Positions 1 through 56,699 are shown, numbered from the stretch's first letter. The stretch: 64,000 nucleotides of DNA from Haliotis rufescens (GCF_023055435.1 NW_025964334.1:2232001-2296000), one strand, 5' to 3'. A program made the numbers and translations. The notes: generated from the sequence alone by a model not told the origin.

Positions 1-255
1 TTGGTTTGTTTGTTGTTTAAAGCCGCACTTAGCAATATTCCAGCTATATGACGGCGGTCTGTAAATAATCGAGTCTGGACCAGACAATCCAGTGATTGAC
101 ATCATGAGCATCGCTCCACGCAATTTGGATCGATGATATGCATCAACCAAGTCAGACGACCCGATCCCGTTAGTTGCCTCCTACGACAAGCATAGTCGCC
201 TTTTTAGGCAAGCATTGGTTGCTGAAGACCTATTCTACCCGGCTCTTCACAGGTC
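1..255 (-). mobile_element. SINE-like family 1 ((AAAC)n tail); other copies ~4478-4643, 5640-5768, 13745-13968, 25963-26224, 34018-34240, 45677-45810, 51905-52070, 56403-56659
   Basis: Recurrent cagcaatattccagctatatgacggcggtctgtaaataatcgagtctggaccagacaatccag core. Confidence 0.85.
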
Positions 256-957
256 CTGTTACTTATGGACTTCAAAAAGCATTTATAACGGATTTTAATC
301 TTGTGTGAATTCTTTAGTGTTTCCAGAGGTTGATGTCTGTGGGACCCCTTATCCCAATACTTGTTCATACTTTGTGTCGAAATGATAAGAAATAATAAAC
401 ATATTAAAGGTACACATATTGATATATTAAATATCTCTGGGCACAGTTTGCAGATAACACCATATGTATGTTAGATGGTACCGAACGCTGCCTATATGCA
501 GTTATGTATAGGTTAAGGTACGAAGATGAGGTGGTCTTGGTGCATGTTGATAGACCGCAGGGGTAGTCAGGTAGGTCTATCTACATGCGCCATGACCGAG
601 TCTGAGGACCTTCACCGGCTTATAAACTGAGGGAATATGGGATTTTAAGGAAAAATACTCCCACCCCTCTATGAAAATGAGCTGGACCGAATGATTTCAT
701 TAGATAGCTACACGATTTCAAATACTATTTTTAAGGATCGTTTTGAAAAAGAATCTTTAGTAATATCTTTATTAATCAAAAGTCCGAATATGTTTTCTTT
801 GTAAAAGTATATACAAATGTGTCATCTCAGGCGACGCAGCGTATCGGTGACATTTTGCACGTGCAGTTCATGACTGTCATGCATAAGAGCACATGTTATC
901 GCGTTGAGACAGCGGCGTGTGACACACTGCCAGTATCGTGAGACGATATCAAGTATC

Positions 958-1573
958 ATGAAGTTTGACGAGGATTTATTTCTGACTCAAAGTAAGTTTA
1001 TTGATGAAGAGAAAACAGAAGATACTGAAGGTGTTTCCGTTTGTAAACCTCTGCAGTTTGGCGACCCTGTAGATATAGAAAGAATCCAAGGTATGGTGAA
1101 CGAAGCAGCCCCGGCGAACACCATCTACAAGTATGAGTGGGCTGTTTCTCTATTTCGTAAATGGCAAAATCACCGTCTTCTTCTATCAATTTCTCAAATT
1201 TGGAACTGTCACGAGATTGCTTGACCACGAATATAACTGATATGCCCGACGTTTTATTAAACGAGGCCTTGCAACATTTTGTATTTGAGATCAGACGTGG
1301 AAACGGCCAAAACTACAAAAGTCAATCCCTGTATGGAGCATTTTGTGGAATTCAATCGTATCTCCGCCCGAAAGGAAAACTGATAAACTTGTTTGAGGAT
1401 GAAGCTTTTGAAGATTGTATAAAGGCACATATGCAGCCATCACCCCATTTCTGTCTACGGGGCATCGTAGTTCTCCAGTGAGACTGTACAAGAGGACAAA
1501 TTCTGCGATGCTCGAGCAAGGACGAGGAAACCAAGAAACGTCCAGTCACCGTTGTTGTCAACTTTAACATGTA
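958..1573 (+). mobile_element. Internally deleted Crypton-like (DUF3504-type tyrosine recombinase) relic
   Basis: NT..KYEWAVSLFRKW, L.HFVFEIRR.NG.NY...SLY...GIQ.YLR; the mirror copy keeps TGHRSSAVRLYKR; frameshifted. Confidence 0.65.
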
Positions 1574-1753
1574 AATTGATGATATTAAACTGATTAAAAA
1601 AACGTTGTTTATTGTATTTGAAAAGCAGTCATGCTCAGGTCAGCAGGTCAGTATAATTTTCAAAAGTAGATCAATTTAAAAATTTGCTTCATATATTATT
1701 TCTACTTGCTTTCACTACTGAACGCAAGACTGCTGACAGAAATCTAGTTGAGC

Positions 1754-1914
1754 AGACCTGGACGTCACCAGGGTAGGTCTATCTATGAATTAGGAGACCT
1801 CGTATAAGGTCTATCTGTGATTTAGAGACCTCATATGAGATCTTTAAATCACAGATAGACCTCGAACGAGGTCTCTAAGTTACACATAGACCTACCTTGG
1901 TGTCGTCCAGGTCT
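1754..1914. repeat. ~160 bp near-perfect palindrome (MITE-like); mirror at ~54610-54770
   Basis: agacctggacgtcaccagggtaggtctat...tcatatga...atagacctaccttggtgtcgtccaggtct. Confidence 0.85.
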
Positions 1915-2029
1915 TACCGCCAGGTTATAGCACGGTGCTAAACAAAGGGATGACGTCACCAGAGGTAAATAATGAAAATTCTAGAAAAATATGCACGGTT
2001 CGCTGAACGAAAGTTAACACAGACAAAAC

Positions 2030-2970
2030 TAGAATTCTATGGATAGGGTTAAAACAATGTTCGAGAATATAAGTTTATCCGCAATGGAAATTGAACAGGG
2101 GCCCTTTTCACAATTTAGTTTAGACCTTGATGAAATAACCGACGTTAACTATGGTGATAAACTTAAATCATGTGAAACTCTGACGAATATTTGGTCTGCC
2201 AAAATCTTGACGCCACTTGGAAAGAAATACCATATCAAAATCCAGTATTGTACCAAAACAAAACCGCCTGTTTTCTTCTATACTTAATCCACCAGACAAT
2301 GTCATTGATAGTTTTCAAAATAAATACTTTAATTTTGTTCGGAGAAATAAAAAAAATGGTGTGCGATGTTTTAAAACAAAATATAATGGAACTAAACCAT
2401 TATCGTTTGAAACCAAATATTCTCCCAAATATAACAATCATATTTTATTATGATCTGATTTTAGCTTGATTTGACTTCACTGAAGATATTCCTCCAGTAC
2501 ACAATGAAGACATTCTCGGTCAAATGGTTTGGCACAATAACCACATTACATTTGATAAGGAAAGCATATTTTATGAAAGATGGAACATGAAGGGAGTCTG
2601 GTTGATCAACGATTTAAAAGATAAAAATGGCAATTTTCTTACTTTTCCGAAATTCAAAGAGGTTTATGACACCAATTTTCTTGAATTCTTAGAAATAATA
2701 AGTTCTGGGTTTTGTCAACAATGGAACGTATGACTTTGGTAAATTAGAATTAGAAAATATACCACATGTGTTCTTGGAATGTAAAAAAATTCGCCAACTT
2801 GGGAAATACTTGGAAAGTTGGCTTTTTCAGAAAACAAAATTGAACAACGTTCTTAACAAGGAGAATATATTGTTTGGTTTCCCGGAAAGAAATAATGATC
2901 CTTTAAATATAATAGTAGTATTTGTTAAGAAACTCACATTCCAAAATATTCAACTTAAACTGTCATAATA
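2030..2970 (+). mobile_element. Decayed L1/Tx1-like ORF2 C-terminal fragments; mirror ~53565-54490(-)
   Basis: IWSAKILTPLGK, VWHNNHI..W..KGV..INDL, HVFLEC..LESWL..ENILFG motifs with frameshifts. Confidence 0.65.
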
Positions 2971-3159
2971 CTATAATGTAGCAAAATGTGCAGCTGTTTG
3001 ACCAGAATATTGATAAATTTGCAAGGTAAGATCAACATGCAAAAAAAATTTAAAAGGAAAAAAAGGTTCATACACTTGATGTGGTGACGCGAGTTAATAT
3101 ACTTTAGTTAAGTCTATGTTGCAATGGAGACATTTAGCGAGTGAGTGTGGTTTTAAGTC

Positions 3160-3379
3160 GTCGGTGCTGTGGTGGTTGGTGAAGAGATGGAGACGTCGGA
3201 CACAAATGTGACACATGAGGCTTCTTTGCTGCACTTAACATCTGTCCATTCATTGTGCCTGACACAGTGATCCTATAAGGCTGTAATGAGCTTATGGCTG
3301 CCGTTTCCAGGTTTTGCAGTTCAGCGGCGCTCAGTATCATACACATGATTGCTATAATACAATACCCGACGGGGGACAT
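3160..3379 (-). pseudogene. Orphan exon-1 relic of the same gene family, with its upstream region to ~3640
   Basis: MSPVGYCIIAIMCMILSAAE..QPYRITV, then a frameshift; donor lost and replaced by a SINE tail (aaaaccacactcactc); no downstream exons seen. Confidence 0.75.
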
Positions 3380-3839
3380 ATCGCCTTGCTTTCTGTATCT
3401 TACATCAACTGCAGCACTTCCTGACTCTTGCCCAGTCTTCGGTTAATGTCAATATCAATAATTAATCAAGTATCTCTAAAATGAATGGAATAAAATTCCA
3501 AATGGCACTTGATTAAAGATCAACAAATATGAGCTTATCTTAATCACAGAAAATTGAATAGATAAAGTCTAATGGTATCATATTAAAAATTATTGGATAT
3601 TCAAGATTGGCTAAGTTCTGCAAGTCGCCCTAATTTGTTATCATTGTTGTCTCACGTATACGTGTCACTGATGGCATACTAACTAAAGTTTGCTGAGGAT
3701 CAAGTTGTGATCAGCCAACAAATAATGAAAAATCCCGTCACACAATGATTGGACAGAGACATGGGTTTGCATGTATTGTGACAAAATCGTTGCAGATCAT
3801 TATCAGAGTGATCATTAACATTTGTTGCTGAGGATTGCA

Positions 3840-4475
3840 ACAAATGAATGCACTTATGCCCCCTCAGCCACAAAGGTGTCACGTTACAAACGTCTTCCAA
3901 GACGTAATCTCAGCGTAATCGTCTCCGGGAGGCTGGTCTCCGCTTACTGACCCTATATCACAAGCAGGCACTTTTGGATTGGGCTGAAGATCATGTCAGT
4001 TGGACAGACCAGGGCTGGGCTCCAGTTCTTTCAGGATTCCAACGTAGCCGAGCATGACCACTTTGCAGGGGGGTCAATCACGATATGGGGAGGGATCAGT
4101 AAAGCGTGAAGAACCGATCTCCATGTCTTACAACGGGGCGTGATGCCAGGTGTGCGTTACAGGGATGACATTCTTGATGTGTACTGGTGCAAGTCGGACC
4201 GGGCTTCATCATTGACGAAAACGCTCAACATCATCGTGCCAGTGTCTTTCATGCCTACTGCTAGCAGGAGACCATTGTCCATATGGAGTGACCATCCCGA
4301 CCACCAGACCTCATCCCTATCGGACCCTATGTGGAACGAGCTGCAGATCGATTTCTCAAGACTCCCTGTCCTTCAAACTCTGAAGCAACTGAGCAATTTT
4401 CTTACTGAAGAGCGGAACAATATTCCGATGGCAACCATCCAGACACTTATTGGGAGCATGAGTACAACGCTGCAC
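3840..4475 (+). mobile_element. Decayed Tc1/mariner transposase; mirror ~52075-52820(-)
   Basis: GGSITIWGGIS, GVRYRDDIL and decayed WP..SPDL..MWNEL motifs. Confidence 0.65.
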
Positions 4476-4879
4476 AAAGCAATATTCCAGCTATAAGACG
4501 GCGGTCTGTAAATAATTGAGTCTGGACCAGGCAATCCGGTGATTGACATCATGCATCAGCGAGTCAGCGAGACTAACGACTTGATCCCGTTATTCGCCTA
4601 TTACGACAAGACAAGAGCTATTCTAACCCGGATGTTCGCGGGTGACGTGCCATTGGTTGTAGGTTGACATTCAAGTTCTATCAAATAGGGAATTGGCTCT
4701 TTGATTGTAACGGGCCGTGAATTAGTGGACAAGAAATCTAGTGATGCCATTTTGCATTTACTAATTTTGTTGATACAAAATCGACATGTTAATTTGGAAT
4801 TTCACCTGCTGTGTCAAGATATAACTCATCAAAGTATAGTACAAGGATAATTTATAAATGATATTTCTCTACTTTATTC

Positions 4880-5480
4880 TTCCACATGTTTAGCATAAAA
4901 CCTTTTGAAAGCTTTACTGAGGCCTGGAATGTTGTAACCTTGATGAAACAACTTTTGACTTGAATCCTTTTGCACAGATCTATGATATTGTCTATAGCAG
5001 AGATCTATTACACATACGGGGTGGAAAATCATTGAAAGGGAATTGATTGTTAGATAATCGTTGTTCCGGAAACTTAAGTTAAACTTTTTGGCCAAATTAC
5101 CTTGTTTTGACTTTGCGAATCCGAACAGAAATTCCGATCCATATGCATGATGAAACAGATCCGCAAGGACGGAAGTACAATTAGTGCCCTTTCAGATGCC
5201 TAATTCTGCCAAATTGTCTTACCCCTAAATTGTACATGAGATGCTATCAAAGAAGAAGTCTAGCATTTCACAAACTGTTTTCTCTGTAGATGTCATTTGC
5301 CTTCTTTTTTTACAAATTATCTGAACATCAGAAGACAGATATGTAACTGTATCTTTGGTCACCACGTTTTGTAACGAAAGCCCAATGGATCAAGGAATGA
5401 AGTTGCTCCTTAATTTTGTCTTTTTGGATAGTGATGTAACAAATATTTTCACAGAATTGAACCTGGTTCTTTTCTGAGAT
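4880..5480 (-). mobile_element. Decayed Penelope-like RT fragment; mirror ~45975-46600(+)
   Basis: GTNC..ILADLF, FNLSFR..DD and KLF.QGY....L.K.F.RF motifs. Confidence 0.55.
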
Positions 5481-5899
5481 TGTAAACAGCAAACTGAAAG
5501 CAATCGTTAAAGTCGTTAAAGCGTAGCATATGTTCAAATAATTGACGGACAATGGTATTGTGCCGACGGGCCACCTAAATAGGGTAACTCTATTTGACTG
5601 TTTGTATGTTGTTTAGTGTCTGCAATATTGCAGGAAATTCACGCCGGTCCGATCGTTGCTTACAATATTGATCACTAGCTTGTCTGGTCCAGGCTCGAAT
5701 ATTTTCATACAATCGTCATATAGCTGTATTATTCCTGAATGCGGCGTTAAACAAGAAACAAACAAAACATATTATGGTCGTTTTCCATGTAGTAACAAAG
5801 TAAAATTTGTCACTCTGACTATTACAAGCAAGAGATTTAATTCAGTTTGATTTATCAGAAAATCGCACATGAGGAAAGTTAAATATATAATATATGATA

Positions 5900-7310
5900 A
5901 TTCCATGTATGGCAACAATATATCGGAGGAGGATTTGACAAATTCTGAGATAAGGTCATCTTCCCCTGGAGATTAACAGTTGTTTAGTTTATAGATTGCT
6001 TCTTGTATCTCTTCTTGGGTGATCGAAGAATCCAGCATTATAGTCAGTATCAGAATTGTCAGTCTGTTCTGGCAAATTAGCGTCACATTCTTCAAATAAG
6101 TTCTTGAAATACGAAAACCATTCTGATATATTTACATTTTCCTTTTTGAAGACTTGGTTGTATATTTCTTTAGCACAGTCCAAAACTCTTTCGAGTTATT
6201 TATATTAGCTAGTAACATGTCTCTGACAGATGCATCATATAGTCTCTTTTTGTTCCTTATTAAATCATTATATGTATTGCGTTGAGTAACGTATAAATGT
6301 AGTGATTCACTGTTCTTTGATCTTCTAAAACATTTCAGTAGCCTCAGCGTTTCTGATCGATTGAAATCACATTCTGAGTCAAACCATGCTTGACCTGATT
6401 TTATAGGATAAGCTTTCTTTATTTTCTTCATGAAATAGCCTGTAAGATAATGCTATCTATAATGGAGTTGTTCTTCGCCAATCTTCTCAAGAGCTTCTGT
6501 TCAAAATACCATTCTTTTACTTATGTTTGAACTAGAAAAATGCCGAATATGCCTGTAGTTATTTACATCATTTATTGGTCCTTTTTTTGTGCATAGGAGT
6601 GATTACACCAAGTCTCAATTCCTTTTGAAAATACAATGTTTCGAGAATTGAATTGAAAAGAGTTAACAAATATGGAAGTAAGATGTCAAGAGAAGATTAT
6701 AAGAAATCTGTTATCAATTCATCGTTTGCTGAAATTTTATTGTTTTCCTAATCATGAATAGCAGATGATATTGGTTGATCCAGCATATATTTGGCAAGAG
6801 TGCACTCATCTACTATTTGAGTCAAGTGAAAATCTTGGCTTGATTCAGCACCACTTAATACATCTTTAAAATGACTCACATTCCCAGTCAAACCGTTGCC
6901 TACTTTATTTACCTGGTTTAATGTCCCGCATCATCTTTTCCCCAGTCTATATATTTAAGTACATCAGTAACATTCTTATGCTATCATCAATGTCCATACG
7001 TACAAGATCGAAAGCCGTTTTAATCATTCACGAAGATGTATCGGATAAACGATTATTAAGAAAAACTCCTTCCAGTCAACAATTTTGATTTAAAATAAAT
7101 TTGTTTATGGTTGGTTTTGATCCTAAGTGAAGCGCTCATGTGGACATTTTGTGGTGACGATGCTGTGACTAATGTCGTGAAATTACATCAAATCTTTTAC
7201 AAAATTAAAAAATATCACTTGTGTTAATCACATAATCAATTACACTTGCTTCTGTACTACTTATAAAAGTATAAATCCCTTTACCTAAACAACTTCCACA
7301 AGACGTGCAC
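5900..7310 (-). mobile_element. Decayed RTE-X-like ORF2 fragment
   Basis: YTFISSTEASVIDY, WFDSEC..R, LIRNKKR..NSKEFW; similar to the intact element at 47920-51393. Confidence 0.7.
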
Positions 7311-7849
7311 ATATGTTGATCAAACATTTGTATATAACATGTTGCTGAAAATTATTCTTACCTCGGAATGCCCACAAGATATTCTTTATTTCGCGTTTCT
7401 TCAGTTTCATTATCATCACCAATTACCTATTTGTTATTGCTCCATATGATACGAATGTTGAAAAGCAATTGTGACATTTATAAGTATTAAAAGCACAACA
7501 TCATAATTCCAAGGTTTACTCAAGAGAATCATTCATGTATTTTAGCATTCACTGATAAACATCTTTCGCAGCCTATATCATGCATCCCTCTTAATATCAC
7601 GTCCAATTATCCAAAATAGAAACAAGACAATGATTTCAAACTCTCGCCCTTGCCCAGTAGAGTTTCAAGGCTTGGGTTCAGCATTAACCTGTTTTCTTCG
7701 CCTTTGCGTGTGTTTGTGATGGGTGCCACCGGTGGGGCAGGATGCGTCATCTTTTCGCGATCACCTGGTCATAAACACGTGAACATCATTTAGTCGGAAT
7801 TGTACAATCGACTCTAGATATTTCTATTGGATATGGATAGGGTTTTGTT

Positions 7850-8400
7850 GCTTTATTCCGATGTTCAATGGGGTTTATGTCCGGGGATTTGGAAGGCGGA
7901 GCACAAGTCACTGCTCTGCATAATAAAGAGTATGTGAAACTAGCTGTTTCTAGATTATCATGCTGGACCACGGGCTTCTTGTGACCATGTTGCCAGAGAA
8001 GCTAAATCAGAAATGGATGAAGAATTGCGTTGACATAAGGTTGGCCATGAGGTTTCCAGGTACAATGACAAGCTGGGATCGAAAACGAACGTTGAAGGCA
8101 CATACCACTCGATGACGTCGGGCTCTGACGTTGAACCAATATTCATCATGGCAATGACATTCGTCAAACCTCACTGCCCAAGAGGACAACCTGATTCAGA
8201 CCAATGATGTCTTGTGAGCCTGTGTCTCTGTGATTCAAGATCTGACCCTGGAAAGGACGGTCGACGTTCCCCTCGTCCAAATTGCGAGACTAGCAGTTGA
8301 GGCAGCTGTTTGGAGATTTTTCTAAAAATGTTTGAGTCAACGACATAGCATAATCAATCACGATTATCCGCCGAATCAGAGTCCATTGGGTCTAAAACGC
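7850..8400 (-). mobile_element. Decayed Tc1/mariner transposase; mirror ~38960-39455(+)
   Basis: QLVIVPGNLTRQRYVNAILHP (mirror copy) and SKSPDINPIEH motifs. Confidence 0.65.
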
Positions 8401-8949
8401 AAAATAGCAGAGAAAAAATATACTCTGCAAAAAAGAAACGCCAAAGTGATTTTAGATATATATTTTATTCTGTGAAATGTTGTCAAAACACAGAATAGCT
8501 GCATTGATCACACAAACATTGCAAAGACTACGAGGTGTCTCCTCAAGTTATCAACAGATCGAGGCAGTTGTATATACGCACACACCTTTTGTCGTTCCCG
8601 GTTATGTAACAAACATTTTAATTCTATAAAAATATTGAAATATATGTCTAATATGGCTTTCAGTTTTAATTTTCAATTAAAGTATTAGCTTGGCGTAGTT
8701 TACACCCCTCCAAATCAATGCAACAATATTCGCTATATCCACTACTGTGGTATCAGAAGTTCCTGGATGACTTTCCAAATGTATTCCAGAAATGTGAGAA
8801 GTGTAAAGATGCTTGGAAAATCTAATAAAATATAGTTTTGTCAGTGCCAAGTAAACTGTATGGTGTGCTACTACAGGTTGTTGAATTTCTTCAAATGACA
8901 CCACAACCAACACACTGATAGCACTCGGGAGATTCCTATATATATTACA

Positions 8950-10582
8950 CATTGTAGATCAACAAAATCATGTTCACTGGATCCTCTACCAACTTGGCTT
9001 TTGAAGAAATGTCTCAACGAAACCCTACCAATAATAACACAACTTGTGAACTCATCTCTATCTGATGCTGAAGTGCCAAGTGCCCTCAATTTTGCTCTGA
9101 TTTCGCCAATCTTGAAGAAGCCTCAATTAGATCATGAGATCTTGAAGAACTATCGACCTGTGTCGAACTTATCCTTCATTTCCAAAGTTTTGGAAAGGAT
9201 AGTAGTGAACCAGCTCGTTGATCATATCCAAAGTACTGGAAATATGGAGGATATGCAGTCTGCATATAGGCACTTTCATAGTGCTGAGACTGCACTTGTT
9301 AAAGTGCAGAACGATCTCCTACAAGCAGTGGGTTCAAAAGGAGCGGCTATATTAGTTCTCCTTGACTTATCAGCCGCCTTTGACACTATAGACCAATCCA
9401 TAATTCTATCATTATTAGAGGACAGGTTTGGAATTACAGGAAATGCTCTCGCGTGGATGCAGTCATATCTCTCCGGGCGATTCCAATCTGTTCAACTGAA
9501 AGGCACAACATCTAAAAAGTCGAGCTAAAAAACGGTGTTCCCCAAGGTTCAGTGTTTGGACCTTTGCTATTCCCAATCTACACCTCTTCCCTTGGTGAAG
9601 TGGTCCACTCACACGGCATTACATTCCATTTGTTTGCTGATGACACACAGAGATTCTTGTCATTCAAACTTACAAACGAGGTCTCGTGTGAACTTGCATT
9701 TGCAGCTGTCATGTCATGTGTAGCCGATATCAAACTATGGATGAGAAACAATTTTCTCAAATTAAACAGTGACAAAACTGAACTTGTCATCATCACCTCG
9801 AAGGCATCACAACACAGGTTGACAATACCAGAGTTCAACATCGGCGGAATTGTTATTGAGCCAAGCTACCAAGCAAGAAACCTTGGGGTTATCTTTGATT
9901 CAAACCTGACCTATGAGGCACACAACAACAAAGTCTGCAAAAAAGCATTTCTCAACATCAGGAACATCAGTCAAGTGCGACGCTATCTTAACACCAAGAC
10001 AGTCACTACTATTGTACAAGCGTGCGTGCTATCACACCTTGACTACTGCAATGCCCTTCTGGTAGGATTACCGAAACACCAGTTCCAAAAGCTTCAGCGG
10101 GTACAAAACTCTGCTGCCAGACTGATCACAAGAGCCAAACGCTGTGAGCACATCACACCGAATCTGAAAGGTCTACACTGGCTTAAAGTAGAACAGAGAA
10201 TATGGTTAAAGGTTCTCGTTCTTGTGTCCAAGGCACAGCATGGTCTTGCTCCAAGCTACCTGGAGGATCTCATCATACAATACCAGTCAACAAGAACCCT
10301 ACGATATTGTGATCAATCGTTGCTTGAAGTGCCACCATCAAGAACAATCTCCTACGGGGATCGCTGCTTTGCAAGGGCTGGTCCTCTTCTTTGGAACACC
10401 CTGCCCAAAGAACTCAGAATGCTCAGTGAACTTAACAGTTTCAAAAAACATCTGAAGACACACTTGTTCAGCAAAATATATACGGCCATACCAACTGTGC
10501 GAGCTTCAAGAGCGCATTTGAGCAGTCAGTCTGGAAACTAGCGCTATATAAATACCAAGTTAATAAAAGTTAATAATAATAA
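8950..10582 (+). mobile_element. 5'-truncated L2/CR1-group LINE RT with one frameshift
   Basis: [65 protein letters not shown]; (TAA)n tail. Confidence 0.92.
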
Positions 10583-43670: not shown

Positions 43671-43680
43671 AGGACAAAAA

Positions 43681-44859: not shown

Positions 44860-45423
44860 TATATCTGTATGAGGGTGAATCAATGCATGTACCTGTATGT
44901 AGGTGTATGTATGTATGTATATGTATGTGGGTGGACGTATGTATGTATCTGTATGAGGGTGGATGTATGTGTCTGTGTGTGGGTGGATGTATGCATGTAT
45001 CTGTATGAGGGTGGATGTATGCATGTATCTGTATGTGGGTGTATGTATGTATGTATCTGTATGTGGGTGTATGTATGTATATGTATATGTATGTATGTAT
45101 GTATCTGTATGTGGGTGTATGTATGTATATGTATCTGTATGTGGGTGTAAGTATGTATGTATCTGTATGTGGGTGTATGTATGTATGTATCTGTATGTGG
45201 GTGNNNNNNNNNNNNNNNNNNNNNNNNNNNNNNNNNNNNNNNNNNNNNNNNNNNNNNNNNNNNNNNNNNNNNNNNNNNNNNNNNNNNNNNNNNNNNNNNN
45301 NNNNNNNNNNNNNNNNNNNNNNNNNNNNNNNNNNNNNNNNNNNNNNNNNNNNNNNNNNNNNNNNNNNNNNNNNNNNCATGTATCTTTCTGTGGGTGGATG
45401 TATGCATGTATCTGTATGTGGGT
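44860..45423. repeat. (TGTA)n/TATCTGTATGTGGG compound satellite containing an assembly gap (Ns ~45204-45376)
   Basis: Directly visible. Confidence 0.95.
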
Positions 45424-46839
45424 TGACACCAGCCCTGGAAACATCAAACATTAACCTTCGGATGTAACGAAAGCGGATTCAGCAAATAGACGGATTATCG
45501 TATTATCGAATTATCATATATTATATATTTAACTTTCCTCATGTGCGATTTTCTGATAAATCAAACTGAATTAAATCTCTTGCTTCTTATAGTCAGAGTG
45601 ACATATTTTACTTTGTTACTGCATGGAAAACGATGATTATGAAAACATTATTCAAACAGCATATAACATCATAATATGTTTTGTTTGTTTCTTGTTTAAC
45701 GCCGCACTTAGGAATAGTCCAGCTATATGACGATTGTATGAAAATATTCGAGCCTGGACCAGACAATCTAGTGATCAATATTGTAAGCAAAGATCGGACC
45801 GGCGTGAATTTGCTGGAATATTGCAGACACTAAACAACCCAAAAACAGTCAAATAGAGTTACCCTATTTAGGTGGCCCGTCGGCACAATACCATTGTCCG
45901 TCAATTATTTGAACATATACTACGCTTTAAAGACGTTAACGATTGTTTTTAATTTGCTTGCCGGTTTACAATCTCAGAAAAGAACCAGGTTCAATTCTGT
46001 GAAAATATTTGTTACATCACTATCCAAAAAGACAAACTTAAGGAGCAACTTCATTCCTTGATCCATTGGGCTTTTGTTACAAAACGTGGTGACCAGTTAC
46101 ATATCTGTCTTCAGAGGTCCAGATAATTTGTAAAAAAAGAACGCAAATGACATCTAAAGAGAAAACAGTTTGTGAAATGCTAGACTTCTTCTTTGTTAGC
46201 ATCTCATGTACAATCTAGGGGTAAGCCAATTTGGCAAGAATTAGGCATCTGAAAGTGCACTAACTGTGCTTCCATCCTTGCGGATCTGTTTCATCATGCA
46301 TATGGATAGGAATTTCTGTTCGGATTCGTAAAGTCAAAACAAGGTAATTTGGGCAAGAAGTTTAACTTGAGTTTCCGGAACAACGATGATCTAACAATCA
46401 ATTCCCTTTCACTGATTTTCCACCTCGTCTGTGTAATAGATCTATGCTATAGACAATATCACAGATCTGTGCAAAAGGATTCAAGTTTAAAGTTGTTTTA
46501 TCAAGGTTACAACATTCAAGGCCTCAGTAAAGCTTACAAAAGGTTTAACGCTAAACATATGGAGACATTTTCAAATTTGACACATCAGTGACAAAAATGA
46601 TATCCGATGCAAATCCCCTTTTGACTTGTTCCACATGTTCCTGTGTTCTTTCAAGAAAAACAATTTACTTGCTTTTGCATGTGTTTGTGATGAGTGACAA
46701 CAGAGTTGCGTCCCTTGGCCAGTGCATGCCATGCACGGGTAGCTCCGCTAGAAACCAACAGCAAGTAACAAAAAAGAGGCGCCTAGCTGTTATAGTTGTT
46801 ACATTTCGTTTTCAACTATCTAGAGAACGTTCTGAGATC

Positions 46840-47919
46840 ATGGGCGTGTCGGTGGAGGTATGGCGAGCACGTATTGGCACTTTCACCCACCCGCGTGGGT
46901 ACCGACAAGTCGGCCATATTGAGACGCGGTATACACCAGGGACGAGATGGACGCCCGGTAATGTGTTGGGCTATCGGCTCTTAGCTACATTATTGGTCAC
47001 CTACACAGTCTTTATTCTTGGAAACTCAGCAAACCAAGTGCAAACATTGTTACTGCTGTCAGGAGATATTGAAGAAAACCCCGGACCTGCTAAGGTAGAT
47101 ATTATTGCGGTTAAGGATGAGATTTTACATGAACTTCGTTTAGTGCGAGGCGAGTTAGCGAGAGACATTAGAGACGTGAAGTCAGACACAAGGAGGCTTA
47201 ATGAGACTGTTCTTTCAATTAAGCATGACATAGAGGATGTTAAAGCTAGGCAAGATATATTTCGTTTGGATTTGGATGCTGTAGCTGAGAGACTTTCCAA
47301 TGTGGAGGGGGACGACACGAGATCAATATCAGGTCAAGCATTATCAGCCGAAGTAAGTGATAGAATTGAAAAGCTGGAGAATTCCTTGGATAAATTGGAG
47401 CAATATAGCCGAAAACAGAATGTGCTAATCTATGGAATCTCCCAAAAACCCGGAGAAACTTTACACCAACTGAAAGAAGAGGTGTGTGAGGTATTTAATG
47501 ACCATGCCCGTGACAGTGACAGTGACTGTAAGTTCACACCAAGCGATATTGTGAATACTCACCGTCTTAGATCAAGTACAGTAAATCGCCTCAGTCCGGT
47601 TATTGTTCGTTTCACGTCGTTAGACTTGAAAATCAGGGCGATTGCCCCCCGTCCAAAGCTTAAAGAGAATGGTTACGGAATCGCAAATGACTTGACTATA
47701 GCTCAACGGAAGACGCTACAGGAGCTACGACGTAACAATAAGCGCGGATATTACAAGAAAGGGGTTCTTGTGGTTGAACATATGCAGACTACAGATAGAC
47801 GTCATGAGTCTCCACCAGGCCACCCAGACACAGACCAGGCGACTTCAAAGACTCCGCCCAGGGCGGGTGTGCCAGCTAGTGTCCGAAACCCACAGAATGA
47901 AGATGATTTTCGCAGATAG
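46840..47919 (+). CDS. LINE ORF1: hydrophobic leader + 2A-like peptide + coiled coil + L1-ORF1p-like RRM region
   Basis: MGVSVEVWRARIG.., LLATLLVTYTVFILG, LLLLSGDIEENPGP, heptad region, LEQYSRKQNVLIYGI..HRL..PVIVRF. Confidence 0.85.
   Translation: MGVSVEVWRARIGTFTHPRGYRQVGHIETRYTPGTRWTPGNVLGYRLLATLLVTYTVFILGNSANQVQTLLLLSGDIEENPGPAKVDIIAVKDEILHELRLVRGELARDIRDVKSDTRRLNETVLSIKHDIEDVKARQDIFRLDLDAVAERLSNVEGDDTRSISGQALSAEVSDRIEKLENSLDKLEQYSRKQNVLIYGISQKPGETLHQLKEEVCEVFNDHARDSDSDCKFTPSDIVNTHRLRSSTVNRLSPVIVRFTSLDLKIRAIAPRPKLKENGYGIANDLTIAQRKTLQELRRNNKRGYYKKGVLVVEHMQTTDRRHESPPGHPDTDQATSKTPPRAGVPASVRNPQNEDDFRR
47041..47088 (+). other. 2A-like StopGo motif QTLLLLSGDIEENPG/P
   Basis: Exact match to the D(V/I)ExNPGP consensus preceded by a Leu-rich stretch. 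Confidence 0.85.
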
Positions 47920-50900
47920 GGGTGTGGCCAAGGCCGTAACTGTAACTCTAATACCAGACTAACCACTTCTTTTGTATTCTGGAACATTGCTGGACTACAA
48001 TCGAAGCTCCACGATACTGACTTTATCTCATTCATACACCAATTTGATGTCATCAGTTTATGTGAAACATGGTCATCCCATAGTGATAGTCAACTATGTT
48101 TCCCCGGATATATTACTCACTCCATCCCAGCTGAGCAAATATCATTTTTTGGGCGACTGTCAGGTGGTCTGGTTGTTTTGATAAAACAACACCTAGTCCA
48201 ATATGTGAAAGGTTGTGTGACCGGTCCCAACGGAATTTTCATCGTACTGGACAAGCGTTTATTTTGTTTGGGAAAGGACACCATTGTAGCTTGTGTATAT
48301 GTCCATCCTGAGGGCTCAACCTGGTATAAATCGGCTACAACGAAGTGTGGTATAAGTTTATTCTTTGAATCACTACTTGACGTGTTACAAAGATTTGGAG
48401 GCTGTAGTATTTTGATTGGTGGCGACCTTAACTCTAGAACTGGCACAGATCCCGACGGAATTGAATGTGACATTGCCGAAAGGCTTGGGATTGATGATTT
48501 TTCGGACATTTATGATAATATTGATATTAAGAGACATTCGTGTGATTCAAAAGTTAATAATTTTGGTAAAGTGCTATTGAATGTTTGTAGTGCTTTAAAT
48601 TTATATATTTGTAATGGCCGATGTGGTTCGGACGCTGGGAAAGGAGACTTTACATTTATAAGTCAGATTGGACAGAGTGTTGTTGATTATATCATAACAG
48701 GCCCTGACTTGTTTACATCATGTGACCGCTTCGATGTCCTATCTAGGCCAGATTCAGATCATCTGCCTGTTGCGTGTTCATTTGTGTCACGTGATATGGC
48801 TTCTGTGGGTGCTAGCTTATGTAATGCACGAGATGTGCGTGACAACTCCCGTTATGTGTGGAATGAAGATAAAGTGTCAACATTTAGAGATGTATTACTT
48901 TCTGACAAGTCAGCTTCAGTGTTTGATCAGTGTAATGAACATATTTTATCTGGAAAATTTGATGATGCTGTAACTTTATTCTCAGATTTATTAGGTAATG
49001 CAGCAGAATGTATGCGTAAGTTTTGCCCATCTGCTTGGTTAGTCGATAAGCAACCTTGGTTTGATAAAGAGTGTGAATTTCTTAGATTTGAAAAGCAAAG
49101 ACTGCTTAAAGTTTATAGACTACTTGGGGATCATTTGGCACTTTCAAACTATCTACATGCAAGAAATAAATATACAAATATACTCCATAACAAAAGAAAA
49201 GCCTACCAAGATAAAATTCTTAGTAATATGGTGACAGGCATACACAACAGCAAAATATTTTGGTCACAATTGAAGCTACTCTCTGGTGAGGGAAGGAGAC
49301 GCTCTCCTAATATAGAACTAGGAGATTGGTATCAGCACTTTAAGAACTTATTTGGTGAATACTCTTCTTCAGAGGTTGAGGAGAATTTAGTTTTTGACGA
49401 TGTTAATTTTGACGAAACAACTCAGAGTATTCTTGATTCCCCTATTTCACAGGATGAAGTGCTTGATGCGATTACAGGATTGAAAAATAATAAAGCTGCT
49501 GGAGATGATGGACTGATAGCAGAAATGTTTAAGTCTTCTCCTGATGTTCTGGTTCCTTTTTTGACATTCTTCTTTAATGCTATATTTGATTCTGCATATT
49601 TTCCCTCATCTTGGGCTGTTTGCCACATTGTTCCTATATATAAGAAAGGCGATGCCAATTCTCCCACTAATTATAGGGGTATCACTATCTTAAGTGTATT
49701 CAGTAAACTTTATATTTCTATTTTAAACAGAAGACTTCAGTTTTGGTCGGAATCCTATGATAGACTAGTAGAGTCTCAGGCTGGTTTTAGGAGTGGATAT
49801 TCCACAACTGATAATATTTTTGTTTTATATTCAGTAATAGAGAAATATTTGGCTAAGAAACGAGGTGTGATTTATGCCTTGTTTGTTGATTTTGCCAAAG
49901 CCTTTGATTCCATAGATAGATCCAAATTGCGTATGGTACTATACAAAAATGGTATTTCTCCGAAAATGTTCTGTTGTATACAGTCAATTTATAAACAAGT
50001 TTTGGCATTGGTCAAATACAATAACTCATTTTCTGATATGTTTAGCTGCAGTAACGGAGTTCGTCAAGGATGTGTCCTTAGTCCCATTTTGTTTGCCTTG
50101 TTCATAAATGATCTTGCCATAGATATTGAATCCAGTTGCGCACATGGTATCCAATTTCATCCAGATGTAGTTCAATTGTTTTTATTACTTTTCGCAGATG
50201 ATGTCATTCTCATAGCAGATACTGTTTATGGTCTCCAGAAAAGAATCAATGTGTTAGAATGTTATTGTAAAGATTATTCATTAACAGTCAATATTGATAA
50301 AACTAAAGTAGTAGTTTTTAAAAATGGGAGTGTTCTTTCAAAATATGAAAAATGGGTTTACGATGGAAAATTGTTGGAATGTGTAACTACATATAAATAC
50401 CTTGGTGTATTATTTTTTCGAAATCTATCTTGGAGTGCACATATATCTAATGTTGTTAATCAAGCTAAAAAGGTTTTGTTTAAGCTTTTGAAGTCCCTAC
50501 AGCTAATTAAACCTACTCCTATGAATATTTTCTTTAAAATTTTTGATGCTAAAGTTGTGCCAGTACTTCTTTACGGTGCAGAAGTTTGGGGTTTATCTTT
50601 ATCGTTTTGCGAGGAGATTGAAGTTGTTCATACACTTGCTTGTAAACGTATTTTAGGAGTTAAGTCAGCAACTTCCAATCATGTTGTGCGTGGAGAGTGT
50701 GGGAGATACCCTTTGTATATCTATGCTTTCAAAAGATGCTTGAATTATTGGTGTAAGATTTTAAAGATGCCCGATTCGCGTTATCCACGAAAAAGTTACA
50801 ATATGCTTGTGCAGCAGGCCATAGCAGGTAAGACTAATTGGGCCTCTAGAGTTAAATTACTTTTGTACGCCTATGGCTTTGGCTACGTATGGGAAAATCA

Positions 50901-51393
50901 GCATCTTGTTATTTCTATTTCATTTATTGATGAGTTCATACAAAGATTAAAATGCTCTTATGAACAAGATTGGCATTTTGCTTTGACCAATAGCCCCAAG
51001 TATTCATCATATCTTTGTTATAAATTTAGGTTTAGCAGGGAATTTTATTTATCGGCTATTACAATCAATAAGTTTCGCGTTGCACTGGCACGTTTTAGAG
51101 CTAGCTCCCACTCGCTCCACATAGAAACCGGGAGATATTTTGGTATCCCAAGACAGCGAAGGTTATGTATGGTTTGTAAAACAGGCTATGTTGAGTCTGA
51201 ATACCATTTTGTATTGGTTTGTGAAAAATATTATGCTCTCCGAGTGACATATATTCCTCAAAAATATTATGTAAATCCATCAATAGAACAATTTTACATA
51301 CTTATGTCGTCTCTGCATCAGTCAACAATTAGAAGTCTGGCTTGTTATATTTACCACGCTTTTAAGTTAAGGAATTCATTTTTGCAGAAGTAA
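47920..51393 (+). CDS. LINE ORF2: AP endonuclease + reverse transcriptase + C-terminal CCHC zinc-finger region
   Basis: Open from 47920: FWNIAGL, LCETW, GDLNSR, VVDY, SDHLP (APE); NYRGI, QAGFR, FVDFAKAFDS, GVRQGCVLSP, LFADD, YKYLG (RT). Confidence 0.95.
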   Translation, partial: GCGQGRNCNSNTRLTTSFVFWNIAGLQSKLHDTDFISFIHQFDVISLCETWSSHSDSQLCFPGYITHSIPAEQISFFGRLSGGLVVLIKQHLVQYVKGCVTGPNGIFIVLDKRLFCLGKDTIVACVYVHPEGSTWYKSATTKCGISLFFESLLDVLQRFGGCSILIGGDLNSRTGTDPDGIECDIAERLGIDDFSDIYDNIDIKRHSCDSKVNNFGKVLLNVCSALNLYICNGRCGSDAGKGDFTFISQIGQSVVDYIITGPDLFTSCDRFDVLSRPDSDHLPVACSFVSRDMASVGASLCNARDVRDNSRYVWNEDKVSTFRDVLLSDKSASVFDQCNEHILSGKFDDAVTLFSDLLGNAAECMRKFCPSAWLVDKQPWFDKECEFLRFEKQRLLKVYRLLGDHLALSNYLHARNKYTNILHNKRKAYQDKILSNMVTGIHNSKIFWSQLKLLSGEGRRRSPNIELGDWYQHFKNLFGEYSSSEVEENLVFDDVNFDETTQSILDSPISQDEVLDAITGLKNNKAAGDDGLIAEMFKSSPDVLVPFLTFFFNAIFDSAYFPSSWAVCHIVPIYKKGDANSPTNYRGITILSVFSKLYISILNRRLQFWSESYDRLVESQAGFRSGYSTTDNIFVLYSVIEKYLAKKRGVIYALFVDFAKAFDSIDRSKLRMVLYKNGISPKMFCCIQSIYKQVLALVKYNNSFSDMFSCSNGVRQGCVLSPILFALFINDLAIDIESSCAHGIQFHPDVVQLFLLLFADDVILIADTVYGLQKRINVLECYCKDYSLTVNIDKTKVVVFKNGSVLSKYEKWVYDGKLLECVTTYKYLGVLFFRNLSWSAHISNVVNQAKKVLFKLLKSLQLIKPTPMNIFFKIFDAKVVPVLLYGAEVWGLSLSFCEEIEVVHTLACKRILGVKSATSNHVVRGECGRYPLYIYAFKRCLNYWCKILKMPDSRYPRKSYNMLVQQAIAGKTNWASRVKLLLYAYGFGYVWENQHLVISISFIDEFIQRLKCSYEQDWHFALTNSPKYSSYLCYKFRFSREFYLSAITINKFRVALARFRASSHSLHIETGRYFGIPRQRRLCMVCKTGYVESEYHFVLVCEKYYALRVTYIPQKYYVNPSIEQFYILMSSLHQSTIRSLACYIYHAFKLRNSFLQK

Positions 51394-53277
51394 TATTCTT
51401 TATCTATGAATGCCTTGCTGTTGTGTATTTAGGTGTACACAGTTGTATTTTTATACATGTCTGGTGAACCGAATTGTACTATGGGCCGCTGGCCCACTCA
51501 TGTACTGAATAAACAGATTAGAGTGTAAGTAACTGCTATGCAAAACAATATATTTTATTTGTTGTATCCCTAATATCTGTTAACTTATATAAAAATTCCA
51601 ATCGACATTCCACCTTATTTAATTTTCTTCCAGTTATAGTTATAAAAACAATGGACAAAGTGAATAAAGTAGAAAAGTAGTAGAAATATCAGTTATAAAT
51701 AATCCTTGTACTTTACTTTGATGAGTTATATCTTGACACAGCAAGCGTAATTCCAAATTAACATGTCGATTTTGTTTCATCAAAATTAGTAAATGCAAAA
51801 TGGCGTCACTAGATTTCTTGTCCACTAATTCACGGCCCGTTACAATCAAAGAGCCAATTCCCTATTTCATAGGACTTGAATGTCAACCTACAACCAATGG
51901 CACGTCACCCGCGAACATCCGGGTTAGAATAGCTCTTGTCTTGTCGTAATAGGCGAATAACGGGATCGAGTCGTAAGTCTCGCTGACTTGGTTGATGCAT
52001 GATGTCACTCACTGGATTGCCTGGTCCAGACGCAGTTATTTACAGACCGCCGTGATATAGCTGGAATATTGCTTTGTGCAGCGTTGTACTCATGCTCCCA
52101 ATAAGTGTCCGGATAGTTGCCATGGGAAGATTGTTCCGCTCTTCAGTAAGAAAATTGCTCGGTGGCTTCAGAGTTGGAAGCACAGGGAGTCTTGAGAGAG
52201 CGATCTGCAGCTCGTTCCACATAGGGTCCGATGTGGATGAGGTCTGGTGGTTGGGATGGTCACTCCATATGGACAATGGTCTCCTGCTAGCAGTGGGCAT
52301 GAAAGACACTGGCACGATGAGGTTGAGCGTTTTCGTCAATGATGAAGCCCGGCCCGACTTGCACCAGTACACATCAAGAATGTCATCCCTGTAACGCACA
52401 CCTTCTATCACGCCCCGTTGTAGGACATGGAGATCGGTTCTTCACGCTTTACTGATCCCTCCCCATATCGTGATTGAGCCCCCTGCAAAGTGGTCATGCT
52501 CGGCTACGTTGGAATCCTGAAAGAACTGGAGCCCAGACCTGGTCTGTCCAACTGACATGATCTTCAGCCCAATCCAAAAGTGCCTGCTTGTGATATAGGG
52601 TCAGTAAGCGGAGACCAGCCTCCCGGAGACGATTACGCTGAGATGACGTCTTGCTGCATTCAGGAGAAACCTGTCTTCCATCCGTGGGGCAGGACACTGT
52701 CGACCACCAGCATGTCGCTGGGTAGCTGATTCAAACGTCTTGTATCGACTCATACTTTGGAAGACGTTTGTAACGTGACACCTTTGTGGCTGAGGGGGCA
52801 TAAGTGCATTCATTTGTTGCAATCTTCAGCAACAAATGTTAATGTTCTCTCTGATAATGATCTGCAACGATTTTGTCACAATACATGCAAACCCATGTCT
52901 CTGTCCAATAATTGTGTGCCGGGATTTTTCAATATTTGTTGGCTGATCACAACTTGATCCTCAGCAAACTTTAGTTAGTATGCCATCAGTGACACGTATA
53001 CGTGAGACAACAATGGCAACAAATTAGGGCGACTTGCAGAACTTAGCCAAACTTGAATATCCAATAATTTTTAATATGATACCATTAGACTTTATCTATA
53101 CAATTTTCTGTGATTAAGATAAGCTCATATTTGTTGATCTTTAATAAAGTGCCATTTGGAATTTTATTCCATTCATTTTAGAGATACTTGATTAATTATT
53201 GATATTGACATTAACCGAAGACTGGGCAAGAGTCAGGAAGTGCTGCAGTTGATGTAAGATACAGAAAGCAAGGCGAT

Positions 53278-53380
53278 ATGTCCCCCGTCGGGATATTGTA
53301 TTATAGCAAAGAAGCCTCATGTGTCACATTTGTGTCCGACGTCTCCATCTCTTCACCAACCACCACAGCACCGACGACTT
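53278..53380 (+). pseudogene. Mirror exon-1 relic with further internal deletion
   Basis: atgtcccccgtcgggatattgtattatagca joined directly to aagaagcctcatgtgtcac. Confidence 0.7.
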
Positions 53381-54949
53381 AAAACCACACTCCCTCGCTA
53401 AATGTCTCCATTGCAACATAGACTTAACTAAAGTATATTAACTCGCGTCACCACATCAAGTGTATGAACCTTTTCTTCCCTTTACATTTTTTTGGCATGT
53501 TGATCTGAACTTGCAAATTTATCAATATTCTGGTCAAAGCAGCTGCACATTTTGCTACATTATAGTATTATGACAGTTTAAGTTGAATATTTTGGAATGT
53601 GAGTTTCTTAACAAATACTACTATTATATTTAAAGAATCATTATTTCTTTCCGGGAAACCAAACAATATATTCTCCTTGTTAAGAACGTTGTTCAATTTT
53701 GTTTTCTGAAAAAGCCAACTTTCCAAGTATTTCCGAAGTTGGCGAAATTTTTTTACATTCCAAGAACACATGTGGTATATTTTCTAATTCTAATTGACAA
53801 AAGTCATACGTTCCATTGTTGACAAAACCCAGAACTTATTATTTCTAAGAATTCAAGAAAATTGGTGTCATAGATTTCTTTTAATTTCGGAAAAGTAAGA
53901 AAATTGCCATTTTTATCTTTTAAATCGTTGATCAACCAGACTCCCTTCATGTTCCATCTTTCATAAAATATGCTTTCCTTATCAAATGTAATGTGGTTAT
54001 TGTGCCAAACCATTTGACCGAGAATGTCTTCATTCTGTACTGGAGGAATATCTTCAGTGAAGTCAAATCAAGCTAAAATCAGATCATAATAAAATATGAT
54101 TGTTATATTTGGTTTCAAACGATAATGGTTTAGTTCCATTATATTTTGTTTTAAAACATCGCACACCATTTTTTTATTTCTCCGAACAAAATTAAAGTAT
54201 TTATTTTGAAAACTATCAATGACATTGTCTGGTGGATTAAGTATAGAAGAAAACAGGCGGTTTTGTTTTGGTACAATACTGGATTTTGATATGGTATTTC
54301 TTTCCAAGTGGCGTCAAGATTTTGGCAGACCAAATATTCGTCAGAGTTTCACATGATTTAAGTTTATCACCATAGTTAACGTCGGTTATTTCATCAAGGT
54401 CTAAACTAAATTGTGAAAAGGGCCCCTGTTCAATTTCCATTGCGGATAAACTTATATTCTCGAACATTGTTTTAACCCTATCCATAGAATTCTAGTTTTG
54501 TCTGTGTTAACTTTCGTTCAGCGAACCGTGCATATTTTTCTAGAATTTTCATTATTAACCTCTGGGGACGTCATCCCTTTGTTTAGCACCGTTCTATAAC
54601 CTGGCGGTAAGACCTGGACGACACCAAGGTAGGTATATGTGTAACATAGAGACCTCGTTCGAGGTCTATCTGTGATTTAAAGATCTCATATGAGGTCTCT
54701 AAATCACAGATAGACCTTATACAAGGTCTCCTAATTCATTGATAGACCTACCTTGGTGACGTCCAGGTCTGCTCAACTAGATTTCTGTCAGCAGTCTTGC
54801 TTTCAGTAGTGAAAGCATGTAGAAATAATATATGAAGCAAATTTTTAAAATGATCTACTTTTGAAAATTATACTGACCTACTGACCTGAGCATGACTGCT
54901 TTTCAAATACAATAAACAACGTTTTTTTAATCAGTTTAATATCATCAAT

Positions 54950-55704
54950 TTACATGTTAAAGTTGACAACAACGGTGACTGGACGTTTCTTGGTTTCCTC
55001 GTCCTTGCTCGAGCTTGGCACAGCGACAGTGGGTGTAGTTCCTGTGCTGGGTTTCTCTTCTACCGCTACCGATTCCACGAACTTTGAGGACGCCTCTGTC
55101 GCACTTTTACTCCTCTTCGAATTCCCGTACAAGATGTCTGAAACCTCCGCTTGCATCGCAGAATTTGTCCTCTTGTACAGTCTTACTGCAGAACTACGAT
55201 GCCCTGTAGACAGAATGGGGGTGATGGCTGCATATGTGCCTTTATACAATCTTCAAAAGCTTCATCCTCAAACAAGTTTATCAGTTTTCCTTTCGGGCGG
55301 AGATACGATTGAATTCCACAAAATGCTCCATACAGGGATTGACTTTTGTAGTTTTGGCCGTTTTCACGTCTGATCTCAAATACAAAATGTTGCAAGGCCT
55401 CGTTTAAGAAAACGTCGGGCATATCAGTTATATTCGTGGTCAAGCAATCTCGTGACAGTTCCAAATTTCAGAAATTGATAGAAGAAGACGGTGATTTTGC
55501 CATTTAAGAAATAGAGAAACAGCCCACTCATACTTGTAGATGGTGTTCGCCGGGGCTGCTTCGTTCACCATACCTTGGATTCTTTCTATATCTACAGGGT
55601 CGCCAAACTGCAGAGGTTTACAAACGGAAACACCTTCAGTATCTTCTGTTTTCTATTCATCAATAAACTTACTTTGAGTCAGAAATAAATCCTCGTCAAT
55701 TTCA
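54950..55704 (-). mobile_element. Mirror Crypton-like relic (less deleted)
   Basis: ORFs 55183..55464 and 54950..55249 contain FVFEIRRENGQNY and TGHRSSAVRLYKRTN..EVSDIL. Confidence 0.68.
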
Positions 55705-56699
55705 TGATACTTAATATCGTCTCACGATACTGGCAGTGTGTCACACGCCACTGTCTCAACGCGATAACATGTGCTCTTATGCATGACAGTCATGAACTGC
55801 ACGTGCAAAATGTCACCGATACGCTGCGTCGCCTGAGATGACACATTTGTATAAACTTTTACAAAGAAAACATTTTCGGACTTTTGATTACTATAGATAT
55901 TACTAAAGATTCTTTTTCAAAACGATCCTTAAAAATAGTATTTGAAATCGTGTAGCTATCTAATGAAATCATTCGGTCCAGCTCATTTTCATAGAGGGGT
56001 GTGAGTATTTTTCCTTAAAATCCCATATTCCCTCAGTTTATAAGCCGTTTAAGGTCCTCAGACTCGGGCATGGCGCATGTAGATAGACCTACCTGACTAC
56101 CCCTGCGGTCTATCAACATGCACCAAGACCTCATCTTCGTACCTTAACCTATACATAACTGCATATAGGCAGCGTTCGGTACCATCTAACATACATATGG
56201 TGTTATCTGCAAACTGTGCCCAGAGATATTTAATATATCAATATGTGTACCTTTAATATGTTTATTATTTCTTATCATTTCGACACAAAGTATGAACAAG
56301 TATTGGGATAAGGGGTCCCACAGACATCAACCTCTGGAAACACTAAAGAATTCACACAAGATTAAAATCCGTAATAAATGCTTTTTGAAGTCCATAAGTA
56401 ACAGGACCTGTGAAGAGCCGGGTAGAATAGGTCTTCAGCAACCAATGCTTTCCTAAAAAGGCGACTATGCTTGTCGTAGGAGGCAACTAACGGGATCGGG
56501 TCGTCTGACTTGGTTGATGCATATCATCGATCCAAATTGCGTGGAGCGATGCTCATGATGTCAATCACTGGATTGTCTGGTCCAGACTCGATTATTTACA
56601 GACCGCCGTCATATAGCTGGAATATTGCTAAGTGCGGCTTTAAACAACAAACAAACCAACCGACCATAAGTAATAGCAATCTTGGTATCTGGTAGCTCT

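What the first reader, a model, noticed from the sequence alone, without database searches (positions are those of the whole stretch)
1..56659. Palindrome of at least 56 kb placing two intact paralogs head-to-head
Seen: arms of 20.8 and 29.1 kb flank a 6.8 kb spacer, and the two ATGs (20104, 28230) point away from each other ~8.1 kb apart. Identity is patchy by eye. I found one mismatch in the innermost ~240 bp, whereas 3000-3100 and 6400-7800 differ visibly more from their mirrors. Inference: a real inverted segmental duplication with arm-to-arm gene conversion, possibly with recurrent inversion of the spacer. Caveat: two haplotypes of a heterozygous animal could have been mis-joined.
Basis: partly seen in the sequence, partly recalled or inferred. 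Interest (0 to 1): 0.7.

Follow-up and report, generated by a model that had tools for sequence, protein, structure and literature searches.

The report
Inversion inside a tandem lectin-gene array
The mirror-image repeat is in the sequence, but it is one member of a five-copy row of genes predicted to encode a secreted sushi-plus-galectin-like protein, and it most likely arose when an ordinary 32-kb inversion flipped the first copy and cut a small transposon in two.

Summary
The inverted repeat is real and runs past the window: arms of 26.0 and 34.3 kb around a 6.8-kb spacer, 67 kb in all. The arms differ at 2.9% of aligned sites and by multi-kb indels. It is not a lone pair: the left arm (L) is the only reversed member of five tandem copies (L, R1-R4). 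The block -5209..26740 is bounded by two matching junctions. Both fall at the same two bases of the repeat unit, and each carries one half of the same transposon, whose halves are adjacent in 13 of 13 other copies examined. So a balanced 32-kb inversion of the first unit most likely made the 'palindrome', not an inverted duplication or a haplotype mis-join. Copies have exchanged sequence in blocks, but R1 sides with its tandem neighbour R2 nearly as often as with L, so arm-to-arm conversion is not shown, and nothing shows spacer flipping. Each arm holds an open five-exon model (276 aa; predicted signal peptide, sushi domain, galectin-like domain with 2 of 7 sugar-binding residues). Expression is not shown. 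An ordinary rearrangement around a modestly interesting, fast-diverging gene family.

The parts
1..20758 (-). Left arm = reversed unit L; continues 5,210 bp left of the window to G000:C556:2226791 (window -5209)
20759..27575 (.). Spacer: decayed repeats plus the first 836 bp of unit R1; part of the inverted block up to 26740
27576..61882 (+). Right arm = tandem unit R1
26624..26740 (-). Right 117 bp, with terminal inverted repeat, of a transposon cut by the inversion; its left 1.05 kb lies at window -6264..-5211 (+). Right breakpoint at 26740-26741
61881..61882 (+). Unbroken R1/R2 passage; the same two bases stand at both inversion junctions
13042..20104 (-). Gene copy L: exons 20104-19906, 18649-18450, 17294-17203, 14584-14386, 13182-13042; 276 aa, open
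   Evidence: exon layout repeated in distant paralogs; no RNA support
18888..18987 (-). Partial duplicate of exon 2 in L intron 1, with its own AG acceptor; reads into a stop
28230..34939 (+). Gene copy R1: exons 28230-28428, 29348-29547 (Sushi PF00084), 30707-30798, 33403-33601, 34799-34939 (galectin-like PF00337); 276 aa, open
63727..63928 (+). Exon 1 of the third copy, R2; the rest lies right of the window (end approximate)
36500..52500 (+). Block of R1 that groups with R2 rather than with L (limits approximate)
46697..51527 (+). LINE-type insertion (440-aa ORF and 865-aa RVT_1 ORF) present in R1, absent from L and R2
3157..3379 (-). Frameshifted exon-1 relic of an older paralog, carried in the unit; truncated mirror near 53305
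20754..21016 (+). Repeat fragment (LINE-like by eye) 92% identical to the unit tails, about 75% to dispersed copies; likely the original upstream flank of L

Best explanation
The inverted repeat is one reversed unit of a five-copy tandem gene array, most likely made by a single balanced 31,950-bp inversion (window -5209..26740) whose one break fell between two head-to-tail units and whose other fell inside a small DNA transposon. Shown: five copies, one reversed; two matching junctions; the split transposon; block-wise mosaic ancestry; open reading frames in both arms. Inferred order: (1) a 20-35 kb unit carrying the gene was duplicated in tandem; (2) copies exchanged blocks by unequal crossing-over and/or gene conversion; (3) two breaks were rejoined crosswise over 0-2 bp of shared sequence, losing about a dozen bases of the transposon, which turned the first unit round and brought its upstream flank between the two 5' ends as the 'spacer'. 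The head-to-head layout would then be a by-product with no function of its own. The gene is predicted to encode a secreted sushi-galectin-like protein that likely does not bind galactosides the canonical way; its lectin-like exons diverge faster than its introns.
For: All 33 minus-strand matches of 600 bp or more in 264 kb have one side inside -5209..20758. L's outer end and R1's start meet the same two bases of the unbroken R1/R2 and R2/R3 passages. Sequence left of L is a high-copy element whose match stops at the junction. Its missing right end, with the terminal inverted repeat, lies reversed at 26624-26740; in 13 of 13 other copies the two parts follow each other 3-15 bp apart (12 copies were picked from hits having both body and end matches, 1 came). 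Among 21,955 three-way sites 504 group R1 with L, 396 with R2, 228 group L with R2; the first two classes form 263 runs against 445 +/- 15 in 10,000 shuffles, and outgroup-polarised sites give the same blocks. In four runs from four studies, 18 spacer contigs sit at one depth level per run and 12 of 14 listed arm contigs at about 2-6 times it (table 8). Exon layout and open frames recur in paralogs at C556:1.56-1.58 Mb and C594:37.1 Mb.
Against: The element's target duplication is only TA, so flanks cannot prove that the two halves are one insertion. A later flip between the arms would leave the same two junctions, so the present orientation of the spacer is not proven original. Two of 14 arm contigs sit at single depth, and the tool warns that depth is no copy number. 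R1's pattern (L-like, R2-like, L-like) needs at least two exchanges, one of which could be true arm-to-arm conversion.
Confidence: 0.85

Rival explanations
1. A palindrome born by inverted duplication and kept alike by arm-to-arm gene conversion, with recurrent spacer inversion.
For: L and R1 share derived sites in 27.6-29.4 and 34.5-36.5 kb and are each other's closest copy (about 0.4-2% mismatch) in the outer 53-62 kb; 1 mismatch in the inner 246 bp.
Against: An inverted duplication does not explain one transposon split across both ends of the block. Arms differ at 704 of 24,594 aligned sites and by multi-kb indels, including a 4.8-kb LINE. In 36.5-52.5 kb R1 groups with R2.
Confidence: 0.1
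2. Assembly artefact: two haplotypes joined head to head, or a 32-kb block flipped by the assembler.
For: Outer-arm divergence of 1-2% is in the range of alleles in many marine invertebrates (recalled, no call). Junctions were not bridged in the other runs' listed contigs. At 20658 the listed contigs of X5 and X7 show only the R-type base.
Against: No N at either junction or in the spacer. The junctions are base-exact, match each other and join unrelated sequences, with no flanking inverted repeat to flip on. The arms have different unique flanks. Exon 4 occurs five times on C556 and once, distantly, on C594, with no close copy on another contig. Arm contigs are mostly multi-depth in four studies.
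Confidence: 0.05

Closest known systems
Mammalian sex-chromosome palindromes (bioRxiv 10.1101/800185, PMC3723533; search listing and abstract starts seen)
   Same: Arms over 10 kb, a unique spacer, paralogous genes in mirror orientation, signs of exchange between copies.
   Different: Those are over 99% (Y: over 99.9%) identical; here about 97% with multi-kb indels, one of five copies, and traceable to one inversion. Sex linkage was not tested.
Tandem gene arrays with non-allelic exchange, interrupted by an end-joined inversion (general knowledge, recalled)
   Same: Head-to-tail units, mosaic copies, one copy with a stop, junctions with 0-2 bp shared.
   Different: No difference in kind; only the unusually clear record left by the split transposon.
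Galectins and galectin-related proteins (PF00337; PMC3396283, PMC10343441, passages seen)
   Same: Exon 4 alone reaches the Pfam cut-off (22.2 vs 22.1 bits) and matches galectin-9 in the PDB (E 0.0008). Loss of binding residues is like GRP/GRIFIN.
   Different: Only 2 of 7 binding residues in L and R1; an N-terminal hydrophobic stretch and a sushi domain precede the domain, whereas deuterostome and bivalve galectins typically lack a signal peptide.
Abalone shell-matrix proteins with signal peptide, sushi and galectin domains (PMC6003135, two table passages seen)
   Same: Secretion signal, sushi and galectin domains in one invertebrate protein.
   Different: Those are large and carry 4-6 chitin-binding and other domains; this model has one sushi and one galectin-like domain. 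Homology to them was not tested.
Gastropod GREPs, IgSF + galectin (PMC9334734, passages seen)
   Same: A small extracellular module fused ahead of a galectin domain in an invertebrate.
   Different: The module here is sushi, not an immunoglobulin domain.

Membership tests
Conversion-maintained chromosomal palindrome | Inverted arms over 10 kb around a spacer | tested here: met
   25,968 and 34,307 bp arms, 6,817 bp spacer
Conversion-maintained chromosomal palindrome | Arm identity over 99% | tested here: not met
   704 mismatches in 24,594 aligned sites, plus multi-kb indels
Conversion-maintained chromosomal palindrome | Arm-to-arm conversion after the arms became inverted | tested here: inconclusive
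   Mosaic shown, but R1 shares blocks with both L and R2 and the timing is open
Conversion-maintained chromosomal palindrome | Spacer found in both orientations among individuals | not testable with these tools
   Only short contigs of other individuals were at hand
Balanced inversion in a tandem array | Two matching junctions that restore continuous sequence when the block is turned back | tested here: met
   Unit passage restored; transposon halves adjacent in 13 of 13 other copies
Balanced inversion in a tandem array | Junctions seen in reads, or the unflipped state seen in another haplotype | tested here: inconclusive
   No bridging contig listed
False duplication of haplotypes | Copies share flanks, total depth equals one locus, a gap at the join | tested here: not met
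   Different unique flanks, no N at the joins, 12 of 14 arm contigs above spacer depth
Galectin | Homology to the galectin domain | tested here: met
   PF00337 E 1e-4 for exon 4 and E 0.19 for exon 5; galectin-9 best PDB match
Galectin | Seven binding residues H44 N46 R48 N61 W68 E71 R73 (PMC3396283) | tested here: not met
   Alignment A1 read by eye: L and R1 keep N61 and W68; R2-R4 also R48; the C594 paralog keeps 5 of 7
Galectin | No classical signal peptide | tested here: not met
   N-terminal hydropathy peak 2.8 (R1) and 2.3 (L), kept in a distant paralog; no signal-peptide predictor was run
Galectin | Binds beta-galactosides | not testable with these tools
   Needs a binding assay
GREP (IgSF + galectin) | N-terminal immunoglobulin domain | tested here: not met
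   Exon 2 is Sushi PF00084, E 1.6e-8; exon 1 has no Pfam match at E 1

The most novel reading that the evidence does not exclude
An undescribed, lineage-restricted family of secreted sushi-galectin-like recognition proteins that has left galactoside binding and is diversifying its ligand face under selection, shuffled among copies by conversion, with the inversion shielding copy L from loss by unequal crossing-over and still segregating as a structural polymorphism.
Probability: 0.2. Interest if true: 0.5.

Novelty: new member of a known kind. Interest (0 to 1): 0.27.

Why it matters
As a structure it is ordinary, but it is a clean case of a large 'palindrome' made by a plain inversion in a tandem array, with the event readable to the base from a split transposon; mirror-image paralogs alone do not imply inverted duplication or conversion upkeep. 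The gene is the more promising lead: no close relative turned up in the protein searches, and its galectin-like exons differ more than its introns, as expected of a recognition protein under relaxed or diversifying selection.

Tried and rejected
RNA: no RNA holder was listed; the two guessed-RNA runs laid on 18400-21050 (X20, X15) covered no exon, only intron-1 pieces at depth 2-3 and repeats; this is no evidence on expression. Polymorphic inversion: contigs of all four DNA runs stop at 26740-26741, which looked like a fork between two alleles, but the last 30 bases occur a second time in the genome, which is enough to explain it; rejected as evidence. My first junction reading took 61881 as the tandem-duplication junction; it is better read as the place of the inversion break (entry 2). 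A search for a copy of the unit's first 836 bp beyond R4 found none among 40 scored of 6,976 candidates. A 21-nt AG/GT-flanked microexon (32036-32056; 15936-15916) keeps the frame, but spacing to galectins and the distant paralogs do not need it; left out, untested. Homologue searches with exons 4 and 2 found nothing at E 0.001 (longer proteins only). The profile search gave 17 weak hits; of 13 scanned, 8 were galectins and 5 unrelated repeat proteins. The Atlas gave no result. No fold was predicted, as the domain spans three exons. Positive selection is not shown: galectin-part dN 0.06-0.12 against dS 0.05-0.14, dN above dS in 7 of 10 non-independent pairs, few sites. Two look-ups of earlier findings returned nothing.

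Full report
Observation. Self-BLAST of the window gives a collinear chain of reverse-strand matches from 1/56659 to 20758/27576. With 100 kb of flank on each side the arms run from window-equivalent -5209 to 20758 and from 27576 to 61882: 25,968 and 34,307 bp around a 6,817-bp spacer, 67,092 bp in all. Overall the arms differ at 704 of 24,594 aligned sites and by large indels, among them a LINE at 46697-51527 found only in the right arm. The genome is an animal one of 1.33 Gb; the organism was not established.

Five copies, not two. Every exon of the arm gene occurs five times in the 264 kb: once reversed (L) and four times in direct orientation (R1-R4), with units starting at 26740, 61881 and 93319. 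All 33 reverse-strand matches of 600 bp or more have one side in L. More distant paralogs lie at C556:1.56-1.58 Mb and C594:37.1 Mb.

How the mirror arose. L's outer end equals the left half of the R1/R2 and R2/R3 passage, and R1's start equals its right half; the two overlap in two bases. Left of L lies a high-copy element whose match stops at the junction. I fetched 12 other copies (chosen among hits with both body and end matches) and had one more in L028. In 13 of 13, the sequence left of L is followed after 3-15 bp by the reverse complement of 26624-26740. The element is mostly about 1.5 kb (1.2-1.8 kb in nine copies printed), with terminal inverted repeats; its left repeat is at -6264 and its right repeat at 26624. 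TA ends suggest a Tc1/mariner-type miniature element (label recalled). Turning the block -5209..26740 (31,950 bp) back therefore restores both a whole transposon and a regular head-to-tail array. This is inference from one assembly, but it accounts for both arm ends and the spacer with one event. The spacer's left end (20754-21016) is 92% identical to the unit tails and about 75% to dispersed relatives, which fits L's original upstream flank with a deletion.

Artefact? There is no N at the junctions or in the spacer, and the junctions join unrelated sequences at base level, which an assembler flipping on repeats would not be expected to produce (inference). In four DNA runs from four studies, the 18 listed spacer contigs sit at one depth level per run (X1 10-15, X5 42-50, X6 29-42, X7 11-18), and 12 of 14 listed arm contigs at about 2-6 times that; two are at single level. 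One run may be the assembly's source, and depth is only a rough guide. No listed contig bridges 20758 or 26740, so whether other animals carry the inversion is open. At 20658 and 20684 X5 shows only the R2-type base, a weak hint of haplotype or copy-number differences, since filters leave holes.

Exchange between copies. Of 21,955 sites compared in L, R1 and R2, 504 group R1 with L, 396 with R2, and 228 group L with R2. The first two classes are strongly clustered (263 runs; 445 +/- 15 in 10,000 shuffles, none as low), and sites polarised with R3/R4 show the same switch near 36.5 kb. R1 is L-like at 27.6-29.4, 34.5-36.5 and 52.5-61.9 kb, mixed at 29.5-34.5 kb and R2-like at 36.5-52.5 kb. Exchange has happened, with the direct neighbour as much as with the mirror arm, and it cannot be dated against the inversion. 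Palindromes kept by arm-to-arm conversion are described as over 99% identical (10.1101/800185, PMC3723533; listing and abstract starts); these arms are not.

The gene. Both arms give a five-exon GT-AG model of 276 aa without stops. Exon 2 is a sushi domain (PF00084, E 1.6e-8); exon 4 matches PF00337 (E 1e-4) and galectin-9 chains (E 0.0008). The N-terminus is hydrophobic, and the same exon layout with open frames recurs in the distant paralogs (exon 1 of the C594 paralog was not located). Of the seven binding residues listed in PMC3396283 (passages), L and R1 keep two, R2-R4 three, the C594 paralog five (read by eye), so canonical galactoside binding is unlikely, as for galectin-related proteins (PMC10343441, passages). 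L carries a partial extra exon 2 whose acceptor leads to a stop; R3 has a stop near its end and R4 a GC donor after exon 3. L and R1 differ at 28 non-synonymous and 10 synonymous codons. The galectin exons differ more than introns 2-4 for R1 against L (29/429 vs 127/3835, p 0.001), R2 (p 0.011) and R3 (p 0.0005), but not R4 (p 0.18); these tests are not independent. dN/dS is near 1, which fits relaxed or diversifying selection. Expression is not shown. Protein searches found no close relative. Five literature searches turned up no description of a one-sushi, one-galectin protein; the nearest are large abalone shell-matrix proteins with signal peptide, sushi and galectin domains (PMC6003135, passages) and gastropod GREPs (PMC9334734, passages). 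I read only passages of four papers and no supplements, and subscription journals are missing, so this is weak evidence of novelty.

Verdict. The feature is real and well explained by known processes: tandem duplication, exchange between copies, one end-joined inversion. The head-to-head layout most likely has no function of its own. Interest is modest and lies mainly in the gene family.

Noticed in passing
window 46697-51527 (+): LINE-type insertion with a 440-aa ORF and an open 865-aa reverse-transcriptase ORF, only in R1; likely young.
   Followed up: partly
window 9711-10541 (+) and 37439-38269 (-): 276-aa open 3' remnant of a LINE-like ORF (label by eye; no Pfam match), open in both arms.
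   Followed up: no
window 22697-23140 (-) and 59274-59723 (+): Two DDE_3 transposase fragments, 68% alike; one in the spacer, one in the arms.
   Followed up: partly
window 1161-1481 (+): ORF matching Pfam QRICH1 domain PF25561 (E 5e-14); probably a transposon-derived fragment, with a frameshifted mirror near 54954-55373.
   Followed up: no
window 32036-32056 (+), 15936-15916 (-): Frame-preserving 21-nt candidate microexon between exons 3 and 4, present in all five copies; untested.
   Followed up: partly
L021-L022, L029 (G000:C594:37.10-37.11 Mb): Distant sushi-galectin paralog keeping 5 of 7 binding residues; may be the more ancestral, binding-competent member.
   Followed up: partly
L024-L028 (G000:C556:1.56-1.60 Mb): Another open five-exon paralog with a much-changed galectin part and exon-1 relics, 0.7 Mb away, same strand as L.
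   Followed up: partly
window 1754-1914 and 54610-54770: About 160-bp imperfect hairpin with 31-bp sub-repeats, in both arms; likely a miniature inverted-repeat element.
   Followed up: no
L004-L006 and L018-L020: Long minisatellite arrays (periods of about 25-40 bp on the left) flank the cluster on both sides.
   Followed up: no
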